This document shows, piece by piece, positions 53 through 10,619 of a stretch of 64,000 nucleotides of DNA. Source of the DNA: an uncultured Pseudomonadota bacterium. GTDB lineage: Bacteria > CALINM01. The notes under the pieces were generated by a model, which did no database searches, was not told the origin of the DNA, and saw only the letters and a program-made list of their open reading frames with translations. The translations under genes and the position numbers were made by a program. The stretch spans positions 28,391-92,390 of the forward strand of contig CAZIMS010000009.1 in assembly GCA_964540515.1 (NCBI GenBank), given 5' to 3'. Each line of letters starts with the position of its first letter. The first letter of the stretch is position 1.

Positions 53-469
53 TTATACAACTGCTATCTTACCCTTTTCTCCAGTTCTTATACGAACTAC
101 ATCTTCTATCGGCATAACAAATATCTTACCATCTCCTGCCTTTCCTGTCTTATTAACATCAATAATTGTTTTTATAACTTCCTTAACTTTTTCATCATCT
201 ACAACTATAAATAGCATTTTTTTGGGAACGTAAAGAGCTGGTTTTGGCAGAGAATGTTCTAATGCGTAGGTTGAAGGGGTAGGTACTACCTTAATATTTC
301 CTGGGAAACAGTCGGAAAGCTCAGTATCTACAGTTTCCACAAGAGAGCCCCTCTGCTTACCTCTTCCCTCAACACTTTGCAAGGTCATTGAAGGAACACC
401 TATGTTTTCTAAGGCTCTTTTAGTAAGCTCCACCTTATCTCTTCTGATTATTGCGCATATCTCTTTCAT
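53..469 (-). CDS. nifI2: PII-family nitrogen regulatory protein, NifI2-like (138 aa, extended loop)
   Basis: GlnB/PII-like sequence (GRGKQRG..., C-terminal GDGKIFV...IRTGEKG); 4-nt overlap with the upstream PII gene; embedded in nif operon. Confidence 0.7.
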   Translation of the reverse strand: MKEICAIIRRDKVELTKRALENIGVPSMTLQSVEGRGKQRGSLVETVDTELSDCFPGNIKVVPTPSTYALEHSLPKPALYVPKKMLFIVVDDEKVKEVIKTIIDVNKTGKAGDGKIFVMPIEDVVRIRTGEKGKIAVV

Positions 470-783
470 AGCCCCTCCTCACCTGTACGGATAGTATAGG
501 CTGTCTCAACAGGACTAACAAAAACCTTACCATCACCAATAAATCCAGTTCTTGCCTTCTCCATAATGATATTAATTACCCTATCTACGTCTTTGTCCTC
601 AACAACCATCATAATTTGTAATTTAGGTAGCTCATCATAGTGAATTGGTCCTACCTGCAGTCCCTTCTGCTTTCCTCTACCAAAGACAGCCATCTTTGTC
701 AATGCTGGAAATCCTGCACCTTCTAAGGCAAGTACAACTTCCTGTTCTTTTTCTGGTCTTACAAAAGCCCTAATCATCTTCAT
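466..783 (-). CDS. nifI1: PII-family nitrogen regulatory protein, NifI1-like (105 aa)
   Basis: Classic PII motifs (FGRGKQKG, GDGKVFV, IRTGEEG); nif operon context. Confidence 0.75.
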   Translation of the reverse strand: MKMIRAFVRPEKEQEVVLALEGAGFPALTKMAVFGRGKQKGLQVGPIHYDELPKLQIMMVVEDKDVDRVINIIMEKARTGFIGDGKVFVSPVETAYTIRTGEEGL

Positions 784-799
784 CTTTAATTCCTCCTTT

Positions 800-1186
800 T
801 TATTTTGATTTTTCTAACCATGGTATAGACTTACTTTTTATTGTTTCTAACAATTTGCCAAGGTGATCAACAATTTTGTCATTTTCTTTAGCTTTTACTG
901 GCATTATCCCTCTTCTTGCAAGACGAGCAGCAGAAGGTCCTCCTATCTCGGTTATGTAAATTACCTTACAATCAGAGAGCTTACTTACCTTTGCTTCTAC
1001 AGCATCATCGTGTTCTGCCCCCATACCTCTGGTGCTTTCTACTTTTTCGTCTCTACCATCTCCAAAAAAACGGGACTCTAAGAACTTGTAACCTTCCTTC
1101 GTAACCTCATATATATCAAACCTTCCACATCGACCAAAATGCTCATTCGCATAGGTTCCATCTGTTGTTGCAAAAGCTACTTTCAT
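800..1186 (-). CDS. nifX: NifX/NafY-family dinitrogenase FeMo-cofactor binding protein
   Basis: MKVAFATTDG...HFGRC...FDIYEV N-terminus typical of the NifX/NifB C-domain family; overlaps nifEN stop by 4 nt. Confidence 0.7.
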   Translation of the reverse strand: MKVAFATTDGTYANEHFGRCGRFDIYEVTKEGYKFLESRFFGDGRDEKVESTRGMGAEHDDAVEAKVSKLSDCKVIYITEIGGPSAARLARRGIMPVKAKENDKIVDHLGKLLETIKSKSIPWLEKSK

Positions 1187-6825: not shown

Positions 6826-8334
6826 CTATCTTATTAAGTCAAAATTTGGACCATCTATGGACTGTCTATCTAACTCTTCCAGTATGGTATTGACAACCTG
6901 AATTAGGAAATTGAGAGTGCCTTGATAACCAATTATTGGTATTCTGTGGAGATGATGTCTATCTTGAATGGGAAACCCAACCCTTACAAGAGGCGTTTTA
7001 GTGTCTCTCCAAAGAAATTTTGCCTGTGAGGGTCCAAAGATAAGGTCGCAGGGCTGTTCAAAAAGGGCTGAACGAAGATGCCACATATCTTTACCTGCGT
7101 ATACATTGCAACCTTTACCAAAGGAACTTTTTTCTAGTAGCTCCTTAGCTTTTAGCTCAAAATCTTTGCCACCATTGGTGCAAAGAATATGAAGAGGATA
7201 CATACCCACTTCTAAGCAAAAACTAATAAGCCCCAAGACAATATCAGGATCGCCTATTATTGCTACCTTTTTCCCGTGTAGGTATGACTGAGAATCTATT
7301 AAGGCATCGAGTAATCTTCCCCTCTCCATTTCTAACTCTTCAGGGATTTGTAACCCCATAATTTTGGAAAGAGTCTCAAGTATATAATCCGTATTCTTCA
7401 CGCCTATTGGGTAGGGCAAAGAGATTGTCTCCTGTAGCCATTCACTTTTTATGTGTTCCATGGTTTTTTCTGTGGAAAAGTGCATTAGTGAGATAGTCGT
7501 CTTTGAGTTTATAGCGTCAAAGAGATCAGCAAGTTTTGTCCCGCCTGTATATAGATTGTACTCACCGGTTAGAGGAGAATCAAAGGAATCACTTGTATCC
7601 CCTAAAACTATGTGTGATATTTTCATTAAGTCTAATATCCGTTTTATCTCCCTAATATTTGCAGGATATGTCTCAAAACCGGTTATAACGTTTATGCGAT
7701 TCTTAGGCATATCCTTTTGTTTAACAATGCTTAAGATACCCTTCATCATATTGTCATAACCAACTATATGGGAACCAACAAAGCTTGGTGTATGAGCAAA
7801 GGGTATTAAGATATCTTGAGGTATTTTATTTTTCTCCCGTGCTGTCCTAATAAAGGCATTCAGGTCATCGCCAATAACCTCAGCCATACAGGTGGTTGAG
7901 ACAGCAATCATTTGAGGCTTGTAAAGGGCATAGGCATTTTCTAAACCTTCTAACATATTGGAAAGACCACCATAAACGGCTGCATCCTCTGTCATAGATG
8001 TGGACACAGCTGGAACAGGCTCTTTATAATGTCTGCTAAAATAGGATCTAAAATAGGCAACACAGCCTTGGGAACCATGAACAAAAGGTAGAGTTTTCTC
8101 AAACCCTAAAGCAGCATAGACAGCACCAAGAGGTTGACAGGCCTTTGATGGGTTAATCGTAACTGCCTGTCTCGCAAAATTTTTCTCTTTATATTCAGCG
8201 CCTTTTGTCCATTCTTTTACTCGCTCAACCTCTTCGTTAGAGCAAGGTGCCTCAAAGGCCTTTTTCTCTTCAAATTGTTTAATATACTCTTCTTCTTTAA
8301 ATAATTGGTTATGGTCTTTGACAGTTGTTTTCAT
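6826..8334 (-). CDS. nifK: Nitrogenase MoFe protein beta chain
   Basis: NifK-like sequence with P-cluster cysteine region ([12 protein letters not shown]); overlaps nifD by 4 nt. Confidence 0.93.
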
Positions 8335-9758
8335 TTTTTCCTCCTAATCAAATTCCACATGGGGCTATTAATTGCCATATCCATGTCTCTTGCAAAGACA
8401 GCAAACCCATCTACTCCATGATAGGGACCCGAATAATCCCAAGAGTGCATCTGTCTAAAGGGCACGCCCATTTTATGGAAAGCATATTTTTCCTTTACAC
8501 CTGAACCAATAAGGTCAGGTCTCAACACCTTTGTAAACTCTTCTAACTCGTATGGAGTTGCATCATCGTATATGATAGTACCCTCTTTAAGTTCGGGATA
8601 TGTTCTTTTATAATCATCGTTATGAGCGAACTCATAGCCAGTTCCAATTACCTCCATACCAAGATCTTCATAAGCCCCTATAGGATGTCGAGGCCTTAAG
8701 CCGCCCACATAAAGCATGACTCTCTTACCTTCTAATCTTGGTCTGTATTCCTCTATGACAGCATCAGTAATTTTTTTGTAATCCTCTATAGCCCTCTCTG
8801 TTTTCTCTTTTACCCTGTCATCAAAAAAGGAGGCAATTTTTCTCATACTCTCGTAAATCTTTGTGGGACCAAAAAAGTTAAACTCTACCCATGGAATACC
8901 AAAATTTTCTTCCATAAATCTGCAAATGTAGTTCATAGATCTATAACAATGGATAAGGTTAATCTTTGCTTTGGAGGCAATACGCATCTCGTTTAGACTT
9001 GCATCTCCTGTCCACTGAGCAATTACTCTTAATCCCATATCTTCCAGTATCTTTCTTGATGCCCAGGCATCACCGCCAATATTATAATCACCTATAATAT
9101 TTACATCATAAGGGGTTGATTTAGAGAAATCACCACCCTTTCCTAACACATAATCTCTTATAGCATCATTAGCGATATGGTGACCCAAAGATTGGGAGAT
9201 ACCTCTAAACCCTTCACATCTTACTGGAACTATAGGGATACCCAACTCTTTACTCATCTTTCTACAAACTGACTCAATATCATCACCTATTAAACCAACA
9301 GGACATTCAGACTGGATTGATATACCCTTTGCAAGAGGGAATAGCTCTTTTAACTCTCTTAAGATCTGTTCAAGCTTTTTATCTCCACCAAAAACTATAT
9401 CCTTTTCTTGATAATCACTGGTAATGTGGACAGTTCCAAAATTGTCTATACCACTAATTCCATTAGAATAGTTTCTTCTGGACCACCAGCTATACTGACC
9501 GCAACCAATAGGACCATGACTTATATGAAGCATGTCCTTCACGGGTCCCCATACAACGCCCTTAGAACCAGCGTAGGCACAACCTCTAATTGTCATAACG
9601 CCAGGACGTGATTTAACATTGCTTTTTACCTGACAGGTGGAACAAGTTCCGGTAGGGTCGTTTGGTTTGATATGCAAAGCCCTTTCCTTCCTCGTTTTCT
9701 CAGGATATATGGATAGGACTTCGTCTATAATTTTTTGTGTCCTTTCAATATTACTCAT
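8331..9758 (-). CDS. nifD: Nitrogenase MoFe protein alpha chain
   Basis: NifD-like sequence ([31 protein letters not shown]). Confidence 0.93.
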
Positions 9759-9782
9759 AGTCTCTTTTCCTCCTTTTATTTA

Positions 9783-10619
9783 TTATTTTGCTTCCCCATC
9801 AAGGACGCCAAACTCCATAAGAAGGTTCTCAAGCTCATCGTTAGTAAGTGGTTTGGGGATTACTAAGTTTTTGTTGTCTGCTAATTTTTTTGCCAGTGCC
9901 CTATACTCATCTGCCTGTGGATGGTCTGGCGAGTATTGAATTACCGTCTGCCTTCTAAGCTCGGCTCTCTGTACCTGATTGTCCCTTGGGAGAAAGTGGA
10001 TCATTTGAGTACCAATCCTCTCTGCAAGGGCACTGATTAGCTCATACTCTCTATCAACCTTCCTTGAGTTACAGATAAGCCCACCAAGCCTAACCCCACC
10101 ACTCTGGGCATACTTTAGGATACCCCTTGCAATATTATTTGCTGCATACATTGCCATCATCTCACCGGAAGTAACTATATATATCTCTCTTGCCTTACCT
10201 TCTCTAATAGGCATAGCAAAACCACCACAGACAACGTCACCAAGTACATCATAGAAAACAAAGTCCAGATCATCAGTATAGGCACCATTTTCCTCAAGAA
10301 AATTTATTGCCGTAATAACACCTCTACCAGCACAGCCAACACCTGGTTCAGGACCACCAGACTCTGCACATTTAATGTTTTTAAAACCCGTCAGCAATAC
10401 TTCATCAAGAAGAAGTTCCTCAACAGAGCCCTTTTCTCTTGCCATGTCCATAACTGTGGACTGGGCCTTCTGATTAAGGATAAGTCTTGTGGAATCTGCC
10501 TTAGGGTCGCATCCAACAATCATAACTCTATAACCTGCCTCAGCGAGGGCGGCTACTGTGTTTTGTGTTGTTGTGGACTTACCTATACCACCTTTTCCAT
10601 AAACTGCTATTTGTCTCAT
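9783..10619 (-). CDS. nifH: Nitrogenase iron protein (dinitrogenase reductase)
   Basis: Walker [10 protein letters not shown], Cys ligand regions, ADP-ribosylation-site region; 278 aa. Confidence 0.95.

What the first reader, a model, noticed from the sequence alone, without database searches (positions are those of the whole stretch)
53..10619. Compact nif operon with unusual architecture: internal modBCA, fused nifEN, NifX-less nifB, distal nifI1-nifI2
Eleven genes are tightly packed or translationally coupled (several 4-nt ATGA overlaps) in the order nifH-nifD-nifK-nifB-modB-modC-modA-nifEN-nifX-nifI1-nifI2. The PII regulators that normally sit between nifH and nifD are at the distal end. 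nifE and nifN are a single 860-aa ORF. The molybdate transporter is embedded between nifB and nifEN. A further gene starts immediately downstream of nifI2 and runs off the window. This is a near-minimal, self-contained Mo-nitrogenase module with post-translational switch-off.
Basis: partly seen in the sequence, partly recalled or inferred. Interest (0 to 1): 0.5.

Follow-up and report, generated by a model that had tools for sequence, protein, structure and literature searches.

The report
Compact Nitrospirota-type molybdenum nitrogenase operon
This is a real, tightly packed operon for molybdenum nitrogenase, its cofactor assembly, molybdate uptake and an on/off switch, but its layout is already described in Thermodesulfovibrio and relatives, so only a local change in gene order is new.

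Summary
Eleven minus-strand genes at 53..10619 are nifH-nifD-nifK-nifB-modB-modC-modA-nifEN-nifX-nifI1-nifI2, with gaps of 24 nt or less and four ATGA overlaps. An identical metagenome contig shows the operon continues into fdxN and nifA.

NifD is a genuine Group-I-type Mo-nitrogenase alpha subunit with all cofactor ligands. NifEN is a true 860-aa fusion. NifB is the radical-SAM-only form. The two P-II proteins group with NifI1 and NifI2, not with GlnB/K. A sigma-54 promoter and a NifA-binding site lie upstream of nifH, and related loci keep them at the same spacing.

The architecture is not novel. Fused nifEN, nifI1-nifI2 after nifX, and stand-alone nifB are the standard layout in about 50 Nitrospirota-type species genomes. 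The layout is published as nifHDKENXI1I2B for Thermodesulfovibrio, with acetylene-reduction activity.

The new element is that nifB-modBCA sits between nifK and nifEN. Two other uncultured lineages share this order and form one NifD subclade with the window.

"Self-contained" is overstated, because no nifV, nifS or nifU lies in the 64 kb.

One point deserves follow-up. NifI2 in this clade has about 20 extra T-loop residues with a conserved motif, paired with a NifD that lacks the alpha-loop that methanogen NifI2 contacts.

The parts
10734..10749 (-). NifA upstream activator sequence TGTAATAGATGTTACA (TGT-N10-ACA), 78 bp upstream of the -24 element
   Evidence: Read directly. A TGT-N10-ACA element sits 78-80 bp upstream of the sigma-54 site in the window, L085 and L044, and further upstream or without a strict sigma-54 match in L050, L024 and L006.
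10656..10671 (-). sigma-54 (-24/-12) promoter TGGCACGATTGATGCT, starting 52 nt before the nifH ATG
   Evidence: One mismatch to TGGCAC-N5-TTGCW. Window-wide, such matches are not enriched over shuffles. The evidence is that the site sits at -52 to -60 in L085, L044 and L050, with a close variant in L004.
9783..10619 (-). nifH, nitrogenase Fe protein (278 aa)
   Evidence: TIGR01287 462.6 bits, cut-off 394. P-loop GKGGIGKS and the cluster cysteines GVGCAGRG and VVCGGF are present.
8331..9758 (-). nifD, MoFe protein alpha subunit (475 aa), Group-I type without the alpha-loop insertion
   Evidence: TIGR01282 809 bits, cut-off 654. It scores 760-800 bits to solved Group-I MoFe alpha chains, 406 to C. 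pasteurianum, 493 to M. acetivorans and below 280 to Vnf/Anf. The Cys275 and His442 equivalents and the P-cluster cysteines are present.
6826..8334 (-). nifK, MoFe protein beta subunit (502 aa) with N-terminal extension
   Evidence: TIGR01286 765 bits, cut-off 427. PF11844 N-terminal domain present.
5922..6815 (-). nifB, stand-alone radical-SAM NifB (297 aa, no NifX-like domain)
   Evidence: It matches positions 10-285 of the 441-position TIGR01290 model. It scores 272 bits to the solved single-domain archaeal NifBs 7jma, 7bi7 and 6y1x. The HPC, Cx3Cx2C, ExRP, AGPG, TxTxN and Cx2CRxDAxG motifs of PMC5715403 are all readable.
5232..5918 (-). modB, molybdate ABC permease
   Evidence: TIGR02141 233.8 bits, cut-off 182.6.
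4507..5238 (-). modC, molybdate ABC ATPase (243 aa), lacking the C-terminal regulatory domain
   Evidence: It matches positions 1-216 of the 353-position TIGR02142 model, 208 bits, below the cut-off of 285.
3776..4510 (-). modA, periplasmic molybdate-binding protein with signal peptide
   Evidence: TIGR01256 178 bits, cut-off 62.5.
1183..3765 (-). nifEN, single 860-aa fusion of the FeMo-co scaffold subunits (NifE about residues 1-420, linker about 420-440, NifN about 440-860)
   Evidence: TIGR01283 nifE 533 bits (cut-off 505) and TIGR01285 nifN 396 bits (cut-off 327) hit the two halves. Both halves align to the solved 919-aa fused NifEN 9i0g. C30, C55, C116, C233 and C481 are invariant in 14 fused homologues.
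800..1186 (-). nifX, FeMo-co/NifB-co carrier (128 aa)
   Evidence: PF02579 62.5 bits. TIGR02663 106.7 bits, just under the cut-off of 112.
466..783 (-). nifI1, P-II family nitrogenase switch-off protein (105 aa)
   Evidence: Best solved match is M. acetivorans NifI1 (9p1x_H) at 128 bits, against 79 or less for GlnK/GlnB. It falls in the NifI1 clade of the tree.
53..469 (-). nifI2, P-II family partner (138 aa) with an extended T-loop
   Evidence: Best solved match is M. acetivorans NifI2 (9p1x_G) over its full length, 102 bits against 76 or less for other P-II proteins. It falls in the NifI2 clade. The T-loop is about 20 residues longer, with PTPSTYALEH.LPK conserved in 52 sequences.
1..40 (-). 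5' end of fdxN (nif-specific ferredoxin III), cut by the window edge; nifA follows on the identical contig
   Evidence: Start codon and MSIKCIRRDGTFW read. The full 91-aa product on L001 scores 105.9 bits on TIGR02936 (cut-off 80.6). The NifA homologue of L002 scores 561 bits on TIGR01817 (cut-off 529).

Best explanation
This is a NifA/sigma-54-driven operon, nifHDK-nifB-modBCA-nifEN-nifX-nifI1I2-fdxN-nifA, that makes and controls a Group-I-type molybdenum nitrogenase in an uncultured, low-GC anaerobe.

Inferred mechanism, from the established roles of these families:
- NifA binds the TGT-N10-ACA site and activates the sigma-54 promoter. One long, translationally coupled transcript follows.
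- ModBCA imports molybdate.
- Single-domain NifB builds NifB-co, probably with electrons from FdxN.
- NifX ferries NifB-co to the fused NifEN scaffold, where it matures to FeMo-co for NifDK.
- NifH supplies electrons to NifDK.
- When fixed nitrogen is sufficient (low 2-oxoglutarate), NifI1-NifI2 heterotrimers bind NifDK and block NifH docking. 2-oxoglutarate plus ATP releases them.

Gene identities, ligands, promoter elements and synteny are shown here. Transcription, activity and the NifI-NifDK contact are inferred.

In evolutionary terms this is a member of the Nitrospirota-type nifHDK-EN-X-I1-I2-(fdxN)-B-(modABC) cluster. In this subclade, the nifB and mod genes have moved to between nifK and nifEN.
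For: - Family assignments are above curated cut-offs for nifH, nifD, nifK, nifE, nifN, modA, modB and fdxN. Catalytic and cluster ligands are intact in NifH, NifD, NifK, NifEN and NifB.
- NifI1 and NifI2 are identified by their best solved matches and by a tree.
- The sigma-54 site and the UAS keep their spacing in related loci.
- Gaps are 24 nt or less and there are four ATGA overlaps. No terminator-like sites above chance occur inside the operon.
- The same order is found on L085 (NifD 88% identical) and L002/L004 (86%). These two and the window form one NifD subclade inside the Nitrospirota-type group.
- About 50 species loci share fused nifEN followed by nifX-nifI1-nifI2.
- T. yellowstonii and strain TK110 carry nifHDKENXI1I2B with fused nifEN and a nearby nifA, and both reduce acetylene (PMC12501866).
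- Natural NifEN fusions are functional (PMC10865832), and single-domain NifB supports FeMo-co synthesis in vivo (PMC5715403).
- The NifI mechanism comes from the M. acetivorans and M. infernus complexes.
- GC3 of the nif genes (0.26-0.36) is close to that of the rest of the window (0.25-0.32), so the cluster is long-resident.
Against: - No expression or activity data exist for this organism.
- nifV (homocitrate synthase) and nifS/nifU are absent from the 64 kb. They must be elsewhere, or housekeeping systems are used.
- Several curated full-length cut-offs are not reached: NifEN fusion model NF011047 (810 against 1229), nifB TIGR01290 (298 against 344), modC TIGR02142 (208 against 285) and nifX TIGR02663 (107 against 112). 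For nifB and modC the shortfall is explained by missing C-terminal domains. For nifX and NF011047 it reflects divergence.
- The NifD here lacks the alpha-loop that the M. acetivorans NifI2 T-loop contacts. The docking geometry cannot simply be carried over.
- The trees are neighbour-joining without support values.
Confidence: 0.9

Rival explanations
1. The cluster encodes a nitrogenase-like enzyme that does not fix N2 (Group IV/Nfl-type, methylthio-alkane reductase, or a tetrapyrrole reductase such as CfbCD, BchLNB or ChlLNB).
For: NifH, NifD and NifK give secondary hits to CfbC, DPOR and 'nitrogenase reductase-like' models.
Against: - All those secondary hits are far below their cut-offs, while the nifH, nifD and nifK equivalog models are passed.
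- The FeMo-co ligands Cys and His, Gln191/His195 and the P-cluster cysteines are present.
- A full FeMo-co assembly line (nifB, nifEN, nifX) and a molybdate transporter are co-encoded.
- A cultured relative with the same gene set reduces acetylene.
Confidence: 0.01
2. It is an alternative (V- or Fe-only) nitrogenase cluster.
For: NifD gives weak hits to the VnfD and AnfD models (297 and 272 bits).
Against: - These scores are far below the cut-offs of 823 and 874.
- There is no G (delta) subunit gene between the D and K genes, which overlap by 4 nt.
- A molybdate transporter lies inside the operon.
- NifD is about 70% or more identical to Group-I MoFe alpha chains.
Confidence: 0.01
3. The internal nifB-modBCA block is an assembly chimera, or the cluster is a decaying remnant that no longer functions.
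For: The window and L001 come from metagenome-derived assemblies. The neighbouring FadL-family gene carries a frameshift.
Against: - The same order occurs on two further independent contigs whose proteins are 37-92% identical to the window's, so they are different organisms.
- All 11 ORFs are intact with conserved ligands.
- Overlapping start and stop codons span the junctions.
- The promoter elements are conserved.
Confidence: 0.03
4. The two distal P-II proteins do not switch off NifDK. Instead they regulate something else in the operon, for example NifA activity, FeMo-co assembly on NifEN, or the Mod transporter. That would explain why they sit after nifX rather than between nifH and nifD.
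For: - The position differs from the canonical nifH-I1-I2-D order.
- NifI2 carries a clade-specific T-loop extension of about 20 residues with a conserved motif.
- NifD lacks the alpha-loop contacted by M. acetivorans NifI2.
- nifA lies two genes downstream.
- The TK110 authors suggest that NifA and NifI act together.
Against: - NifI1 is about 60% identical to M. acetivorans NifI1 over its full length, and both proteins sit inside the NifI clades.
- M. maripaludis and M. infernus NifD also lack the alpha-loop, yet NifI1,2 inhibits them.
- Gene position within an operon does not determine the protein's target.
Confidence: 0.08

Closest known systems
Thermodesulfovibrio yellowstonii DSM 11347 / strain TK110 nifHDKENXI1I2B cluster (also Dissulfurispira thermophila and Desulfuromonas soudanensis)
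   Same: - Group-I-type NifHDK, with the NifK N-terminal extension and no NifD alpha-loop.
- Fused nifEN, with nifX-nifI1-nifI2 after it.
- Stand-alone radical-SAM nifB and a nifA nearby.
- Amino-acid identity to the window: NifH 82%, NifD 75%, NifK 61%, NifEN 48%, NifI1 81%, NifI2 59%.
- Acetylene reduction has been shown (PMC12501866), and the layout is catalogued in PMC11773926.
   Different: - Here nifB sits directly after nifK, and modB-modC-modA follow it, ahead of nifEN.
- In relatives nifB follows nifI2/fdxN. Where mod genes are linked, they lie further downstream in the order modA-modB-modC.
- The host is not a recognisable Thermodesulfovibrio. Its IleRS has no named relative above 56% identity.
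Methanogen nifH-nifI1-nifI2-nifD-nifK-nifE-nifN-nifX operons (Methanococcus maripaludis, Methanosarcina acetivorans, Methanocaldococcus infernus)
   Same: - A NifI1/NifI2 pair for post-translational switch-off.
- Single-domain NifB.
- A compact core gene set.
   Different: - In methanogens the P-II genes lie between nifH and nifD, nifE and nifN are separate, and there is no NifA/sigma-54 control.
- Their NifD belongs to other nitrogenase groups.
- Their NifI2 T-loop is about 20 residues shorter.
Natural NifEN fusions of Geobacter metallireducens (probably the solved 919-aa chain 9i0g; the tool output gives no organism) and Anabaena variabilis
   Same: One polypeptide carries the NifE and NifN halves joined by a short linker, with conserved cluster cysteines. 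These fusions are functional in vivo and in vitro (PMC10865832).
   Different: The window protein is 860 aa and scores 575 bits against 9i0g. It falls below the cut-off of the NCBIfam fused-NifEN model NF011047 (810 against 1229), so it belongs to a separate, Nitrospirota-type subgroup.
Azotobacter/Klebsiella-type NifA-sigma-54 nif promoters
   Same: TGT-N10-ACA lies about 80 bp upstream of a GG-N10-GC promoter, and a GAF/AAA+/HTH NifA is present.
   Different: No nifL is present. NifA control is combined with NifI1/NifI2, a pairing otherwise associated with anaerobes.

Membership tests
Mo-nitrogenase MoFe protein (NifDK) | Alpha subunit with FeMo-co ligands (Cys275 and His442 in A. vinelandii numbering) and P-cluster cysteines; passes the nifD and nifK equivalog models | tested here: met
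   TIGR01282 809 bits (cut-off 654). TIGR01286 765 bits (cut-off 427). [35 protein letters not shown] and [11 protein letters not shown] align to solved MoFe alpha chains.
Nitrogenase Fe protein (NifH) | Passes the nifH equivalog model; P-loop and the two [4Fe-4S] cysteines | tested here: met
   TIGR01287 462.6 bits (cut-off 394). Motifs read.
Fused (bifunctional) NifEN | One ORF with a NifE half and a NifN half, each above its family cut-off, and conserved cluster cysteines | tested here: met
   nifE 533 bits (cut-off 505) and nifN 396 bits (cut-off 327). It is a single ORF. It is also a single ORF in L085, L002, L003 and L087. C30, C55, C116, C233 and C481 are invariant.
Fused (bifunctional) NifEN | Score above the curated cut-off of NCBIfam NF011047 (PRK14477) | tested here: not met
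   810 bits against a cut-off of 1229. The model appears to be tuned to another subgroup. This does not affect the architecture call.
NifB, stand-alone radical-SAM architecture | The six NifB motifs of Arragain et al. 2017 (HPC, Cx3Cx2C, ExRP, AGPG, TxTxN, Cx2CRxDAxG) and no NifX-like domain | tested here: met
   All six motifs are readable in the translation. The TIGR01290 match ends at model position 285 of 441, which is why the score of 298 is below the full-length cut-off of 344. Best solved matches are single-domain NifBs.
NifI1/NifI2 (P-II nitrogenase regulators) | The two paralogues group with NifI1 and NifI2 rather than with GlnB/GlnK, and are encoded in a nif cluster | tested here: met
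   Best PDB matches are 9p1x_H and 9p1x_G, with margins of 26-49 bits over GlnK/GlnB. The neighbour-joining tree separates them from five GlnB/K-type proteins of related loci.
NifI1/NifI2 (P-II nitrogenase regulators) | Forms a heterotrimer of two NifI1 and one NifI2 that binds NifDK and is released by 2-oxoglutarate plus ATP | not testable with these tools
   Known only for methanogen proteins. Needs biochemistry.
ModABC molybdate transporter | modA, modB and modC equivalog models passed | tested here: inconclusive
   modB 233.8 bits (cut-off 182.6) and modA 178 bits (cut-off 62.5) are met. modC scores 208 bits against a cut-off of 285 because the C-terminal regulatory domain is absent. Specificity for molybdate over tungstate or sulfate is not testable here.
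Nitrospirota-type nif cluster (nifHDK-EN-X-I1-I2-B) | Gene order nifH-D-K directly followed by fused nifEN, then nifX-nifI1-nifI2, with nifB after them | tested here: not met
   The content and the EN-X-I1-I2 block are the same, but nifB-modBCA is inserted between nifK and nifEN. The window is a derived sub-variant, shared with L085 and L004.
NifA/sigma-54-dependent nif promoter | A GG-N10-GC element preceded by TGT-N10-ACA, plus a NifA gene | tested here: met
   The sites are at 10656..10671 and 10734..10749, and are conserved in related loci. The NifA homologue of L002 scores 561 bits (cut-off 529). The window's own nifA is seen only as a truncated gene on L001.

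The most novel reading that the evidence does not exclude
In this clade the NifI1-NifI2 switch has been re-fitted to a Group-I-type ('aerobe-type') MoFe protein. NifI2 carries about 20 extra T-loop residues with a strongly conserved K.PTPSTYALEH.LPK motif. Its partner NifD lacks the alpha-loop insertion that the M. acetivorans NifI2 T-loop grips, and NifK carries the N-terminal extension. If the extension makes a new contact, this would be a third, undescribed docking mode for P-II control of nitrogenase. 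It would operate together with NifA/sigma-54 transcriptional control, in a phylum-level uncultured lineage (possibly Ca. Acidulodesulfobacteriota).
Probability: 0.3. Interest if true: 0.45.

Novelty: new member of a known kind. Interest (0 to 1): 0.2.

Why it matters
The operon adds one more lineage to the known Nitrospirota-type diazotrophs. This lineage is uncultured, low in GC and has no close named relative.

It shows that the compact cluster can place its molybdate transporter and nifB inside the structural operon. That gives a 13-gene, single-promoter unit carrying nearly everything for Mo-nitrogenase except homocitrate synthase and Fe-S donors.

Such compact natural units are useful templates for nif engineering, because they combine fused NifEN, single-domain NifB and built-in Mo uptake. 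They are not a conceptual surprise.

The conserved NifI2 T-loop extension is the one feature that could open a new experimental question about how P-II proteins dock on Group-I nitrogenases.

Tried and rejected
- **Source organism.** The genome-contig scan with a NifEN profile returned no near-identical locus; the best was 56% identity. Exact look-ups led only to metagenome contigs FMJZ01... of GCA_900096875.1, and a 121,735-bp NCBI contig was reported but not shown. No paper mentions those accessions.
- **Host phylum from IleRS.** IleRS homologues at 70-87% identity are named only 'MAG: Proteobacteria bacterium'. There is then a gap to about 55%, with Geobacter, Desulfacinum and Nitrospira roughly equidistant. 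The phylum stays open.
- **Ca. Acidulodesulfobacteriota as the host.** This fits on GC content (29-43.5%) and on conserved nifHDK, but it rests on recall plus those two traits. It is a lead, not a result.
- **Sigma-70 promoter and terminator scans.** Inside the operon these gave counts at or below the shuffle expectation, so they were not used.
- **Recent horizontal transfer.** The nif region has higher GC (0.37-0.44 against 0.31-0.36). GC3 is nearly the same as in the rest of the window, so the excess lies in codon positions 1 and 2 and reflects amino-acid composition. Rejected.
- **Cyanobacterial 'nifEN' tblastn rows.** These may be adjacent separate genes and were not counted as fusions.

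Full report
**Observation**

NCBIfam and Pfam scans name them as follows:

| Gene | Model | Bits | Cut-off | Note |
|---|---|---|---|---|
| nifH | TIGR01287 | 463 | 394 | |
| nifD | TIGR01282 | 809 | 654 | |
| nifK | TIGR01286 | 765 | 427 | N-terminal PF11844 domain |
| nifB | TIGR01290 | 298 | 344 | radical-SAM part only (model positions 10-285 of 441) |
| modB | TIGR02141 | 234 | 183 | |
| modC | TIGR02142 | 208 | 285 | 243 aa; matches only the ATPase part (positions 1-216 of 353) |
| modA | TIGR01256 | 178 | 62.5 | |
| nifEN (860 aa) | TIGR01283 nifE / TIGR01285 nifN | 533 / 396 | 505 / 327 | both halves pass |
| nifX | PF02579; TIGR02663 | 62.5; 107 | 26.3; 112 | just under the TIGR cut-off |
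| nifI1, nifI2 | PF00543 (P-II) for nifI1; NCBIfam P-II models for both (all below cut-off) | | | 105 and 138 aa |

Intergenic distances range from -7 to +24 nt. There are four ATGA start/stop overlaps (nifD/K, modC/A, nifEN/X, nifI1/I2), and GGAGG-type ribosome-binding sites precede most starts.

**Extent of the operon**

The gene that starts at position 40 and leaves the window can be read on an identical metagenome contig, FMJZ01162954, fetched as L001. It is a 91-aa two-cluster ferredoxin that passes the nif-specific ferredoxin III model (TIGR02936, 106 bits, cut-off 81). A GAF/sigma-54/HTH activator follows. Its full-length homologue on L002 passes the NifA model (561 bits, cut-off 529).

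Upstream of nifH, TGGCACGATTGATGCT (10671..10656) is a -24/-12 sigma-54 promoter, starting 52 nt before the nifH start codon. TGTAATAGATGTTACA (10749..10734) is a TGT-N10-ACA NifA site 78 bp further upstream.

Loose sigma-54 matches are not enriched in the window as a whole (25 found, 19 expected). The weight therefore rests on conservation. The same pair of elements, at the same spacing, precedes nifH in L085 and L044. L050 has both elements at a wider spacing, and L004 and L024 have near-variants.

No terminator-like sites above chance lie inside the cluster. The unit is best read as one NifA-activated transcript of at least 13 genes.

**Is it a true Mo-nitrogenase?**

NifD aligns end to end with solved Group-I MoFe alpha chains at 760-800 bits. 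It scores 406 bits to the Clostridium pasteurianum type, 493 to Methanosarcina acetivorans and below 280 to Vnf/Anf.

The FeMo-co ligands are present (Cys in HCYRSMNY, His in [13 protein letters not shown]). So are the P-cluster cysteines and the QSLGHH segment.

- NifD has 475 residues and lacks the roughly 50-residue alpha-loop insertion.
- NifK has the N-terminal extension.
- nifD and nifK overlap, so there is no room for a delta subunit.
- NifH, NifK, NifEN and NifB all keep their cluster ligands.

This removes the nitrogenase-like and alternative-nitrogenase readings.

**The NifEN fusion**

The 860-codon ORF is uninterrupted. Several lines confirm it:
- It is identical on L001 and 98% identical in a separate 860-aa database entry.
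- The two sister lineages have single ORFs of 861 and 869 aa.
- More than 100 database homologues of 840-920 aa cover 95-100% of it.
- Both halves align to a solved 919-aa fused NifEN, 9i0g.
- Fourteen aligned homologues show invariant residues on both sides of a linker of about 20 residues.

Natural NifEN fusions from Geobacter metallireducens and Anabaena variabilis are functional (PMC10865832). The fusion is real and of a known kind.

**NifB**

The protein matches single-domain archaeal NifB structures (7jma, 7bi7, 6y1x). It carries all six motifs used to define NifB. The stand-alone architecture accounts for 24% of bacterial NifBs and is sufficient in vivo (PMC5715403).

**The P-II pair**

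The best solved matches are the NifI1 and NifI2 chains of the M. acetivorans NifDK-NifI supercomplex (9p1x_H at 128 bits, 9p1x_G at 102 bits). These are clearly ahead of any GlnB/GlnK.

In a neighbour-joining tree the window proteins sit in the NifI1 and NifI2 clades. They join those of T. yellowstonii, of a canonical nifH-I1-I2-D locus (L019) and of M. acetivorans. The GlnB/K-type P-II proteins of related loci, including the one next to the T. yellowstonii Amt gene, form a separate clade.

Mechanistically, heterotrimers of two NifI1 and one NifI2 occupy the NifH docking face of NifDK, and 2-oxoglutarate plus ATP releases them. I infer the same here.

**How unusual is the architecture?**

A profile scan of one genome per species returned 80 loci. 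A tblastn synteny survey of these shows that nifH-D-K, fused nifEN, nifX, nifI1, nifI2, usually fdxN, then nifB, is the standard layout. It occurs in about 50 Nitrospirota, Thermodesulfovibrionia and Magnetobacteriaceae species. It also occurs on a few MAGs labelled otherwise.

In at least eight of them modA-modB-modC follow nifB. In one, modABC lies upstream of nifH.

T. yellowstonii has exactly nifHDK-nifEN-nifX-nifI1-nifI2-nifB. The layout is published as nifHDKENXIIB, with the nifEN fusion noted, a nifA homologue downstream, and acetylene reduction measured in strain TK110 and T. yellowstonii (PMC12501866). It is also catalogued for Dissulfurispira and Desulfuromonas soudanensis (PMC11773926).

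**What is particular to this window**

nifB and the mod genes lie between nifK and nifEN, and the mod order is B-C-A rather than A-B-C.

The same order occurs on FWPU01008325 (L085; NifD 88% identical) and on JBEQAF010000002 (L002/L004; NifD 86%, NifEN 56%). These two and the window form one subclade inside the Nitrospirota-type NifD group (neighbour-joining, no support values).

A PaaK-like gene upstream of the nif cluster on L085 is 65% identical to one at 35601..36914 in the window. L085 therefore probably comes from a related organism.

The rearrangement is real and inherited, not an assembly artefact. Its likely effect is simply to tie molybdate uptake and NifB-co synthesis to the same transcript as the structural genes.

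**Host**

GC3 of the nif genes matches the rest of the window, so the cluster is not a recent import.

The IleRS encoded at 39439..42210 has relatives at 70-87% identity, named only 'Proteobacteria bacterium' MAGs. A gap follows down to about 55%, where Geobacter, Desulfacinum and Nitrospira are equidistant.

The host is thus an uncultured, deep lineage. Ca. Acidulodesulfobacteriota would fit on GC content and on conserved, expressed nifHDK, but I could not test this.

**Limits of 'self-contained'**

No nifV, nifS or nifU was found among the ORFs of 150 aa or more in the 64 kb, all of which were scanned. The contigs L001 and L002 show none downstream of nifA either.

**One feature worth a follow-up**

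NifI2 in this clade is about 20 residues longer in the T-loop than NifI2 of M. acetivorans or of the canonical locus L019. The insertion carries a K.PTPSTYALEH.LPK motif that is 80-100% conserved (most positions 90% or more) across 52 sequences whose overall identity falls to about 50%.

In M. acetivorans the NifI2 T-loop grips the NifD alpha-loop insertion, and the authors expect different binding where that loop is absent. Here the loop is absent and NifK has the N-terminal extension. A distinct docking contact is plausible but untested.

**Verdict**

This is a correctly read, almost certainly functional Mo-nitrogenase operon. It belongs to a known and published cluster type and differs by an inherited local rearrangement. 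It is of low surprise to a specialist, and of modest value as a compact natural template and as a pointer to NifI control of Group-I-type nitrogenases.

Noticed in passing
window 11128-12452 (+): A FadL-family outer-membrane transporter gene, divergent from nifH, is split into two ORFs (113 and 317 aa). The cause is a one-base frameshift inside a T4A6 homopolymer run at about 11463-11474. It could be a pseudogene, a slippage-prone tract or a sequencing error.
   Followed up: partly
window 12713-12801 (+): A selenocysteine tRNA (Rfam RF01852, 74.7 bits). The host therefore uses selenoproteins.
   Followed up: no
window 45546-51561 (-): hydG-hydE-hydF ([FeFe]-hydrogenase maturases) are followed by a 753-aa sigma-54 enhancer-binding protein. 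Its N-terminal 300 residues are a [FeFe]-hydrogenase H-domain-like module with partly altered H-cluster motifs ([22 protein letters not shown]). An exact TGGCAC-N5-TTGCT site lies upstream of hydG at 51561..51546. No catalytic HydA is in the window. It may be an H2- or redox-sensing transcription factor. In T. yellowstonii, hydG/F/E sit directly upstream of nifH.
   Followed up: partly
window 53-469 (-), and NifI2 of about 50 related loci: NifI2 across the whole Nitrospirota-type clade carries a T-loop insertion of about 20 residues. It contains a highly conserved K.PTPSTYALEH.LPK motif that is absent from methanogen NifI2 and from canonical nifH-I1-I2-D NifI2.
   Followed up: partly
window 4507-5238 (-): ModC is only 243 aa and lacks the C-terminal molybdate-sensing regulatory domain of E. 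coli-type ModC. Trans-inhibition of uptake by internal molybdate is therefore probably absent.
   Followed up: no
window 43838-45478 (+): A 546-aa protein with only a weak glutamate-synthase FMN-domain hit (residues 291-418) and no NCBIfam family.
   Followed up: no
window 14047-21322 (-): A large Mrp/Mbh-type multi-subunit cation/proton antiporter cluster with three MrpD/NuoL-like subunits in tandem.
   Followed up: no
L019 (JBKBUA010000009), 4697-12955: One Thermodesulfovibrionales MAG has the canonical nifH-nifI1-nifI2-nifD-nifK-nifB order, with a distant NifD (42% identity), yet still a fused nifEN (48% identity) followed by nifX. The NifEN fusion is therefore not tied to the Group-I-type structural genes.
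   Followed up: no
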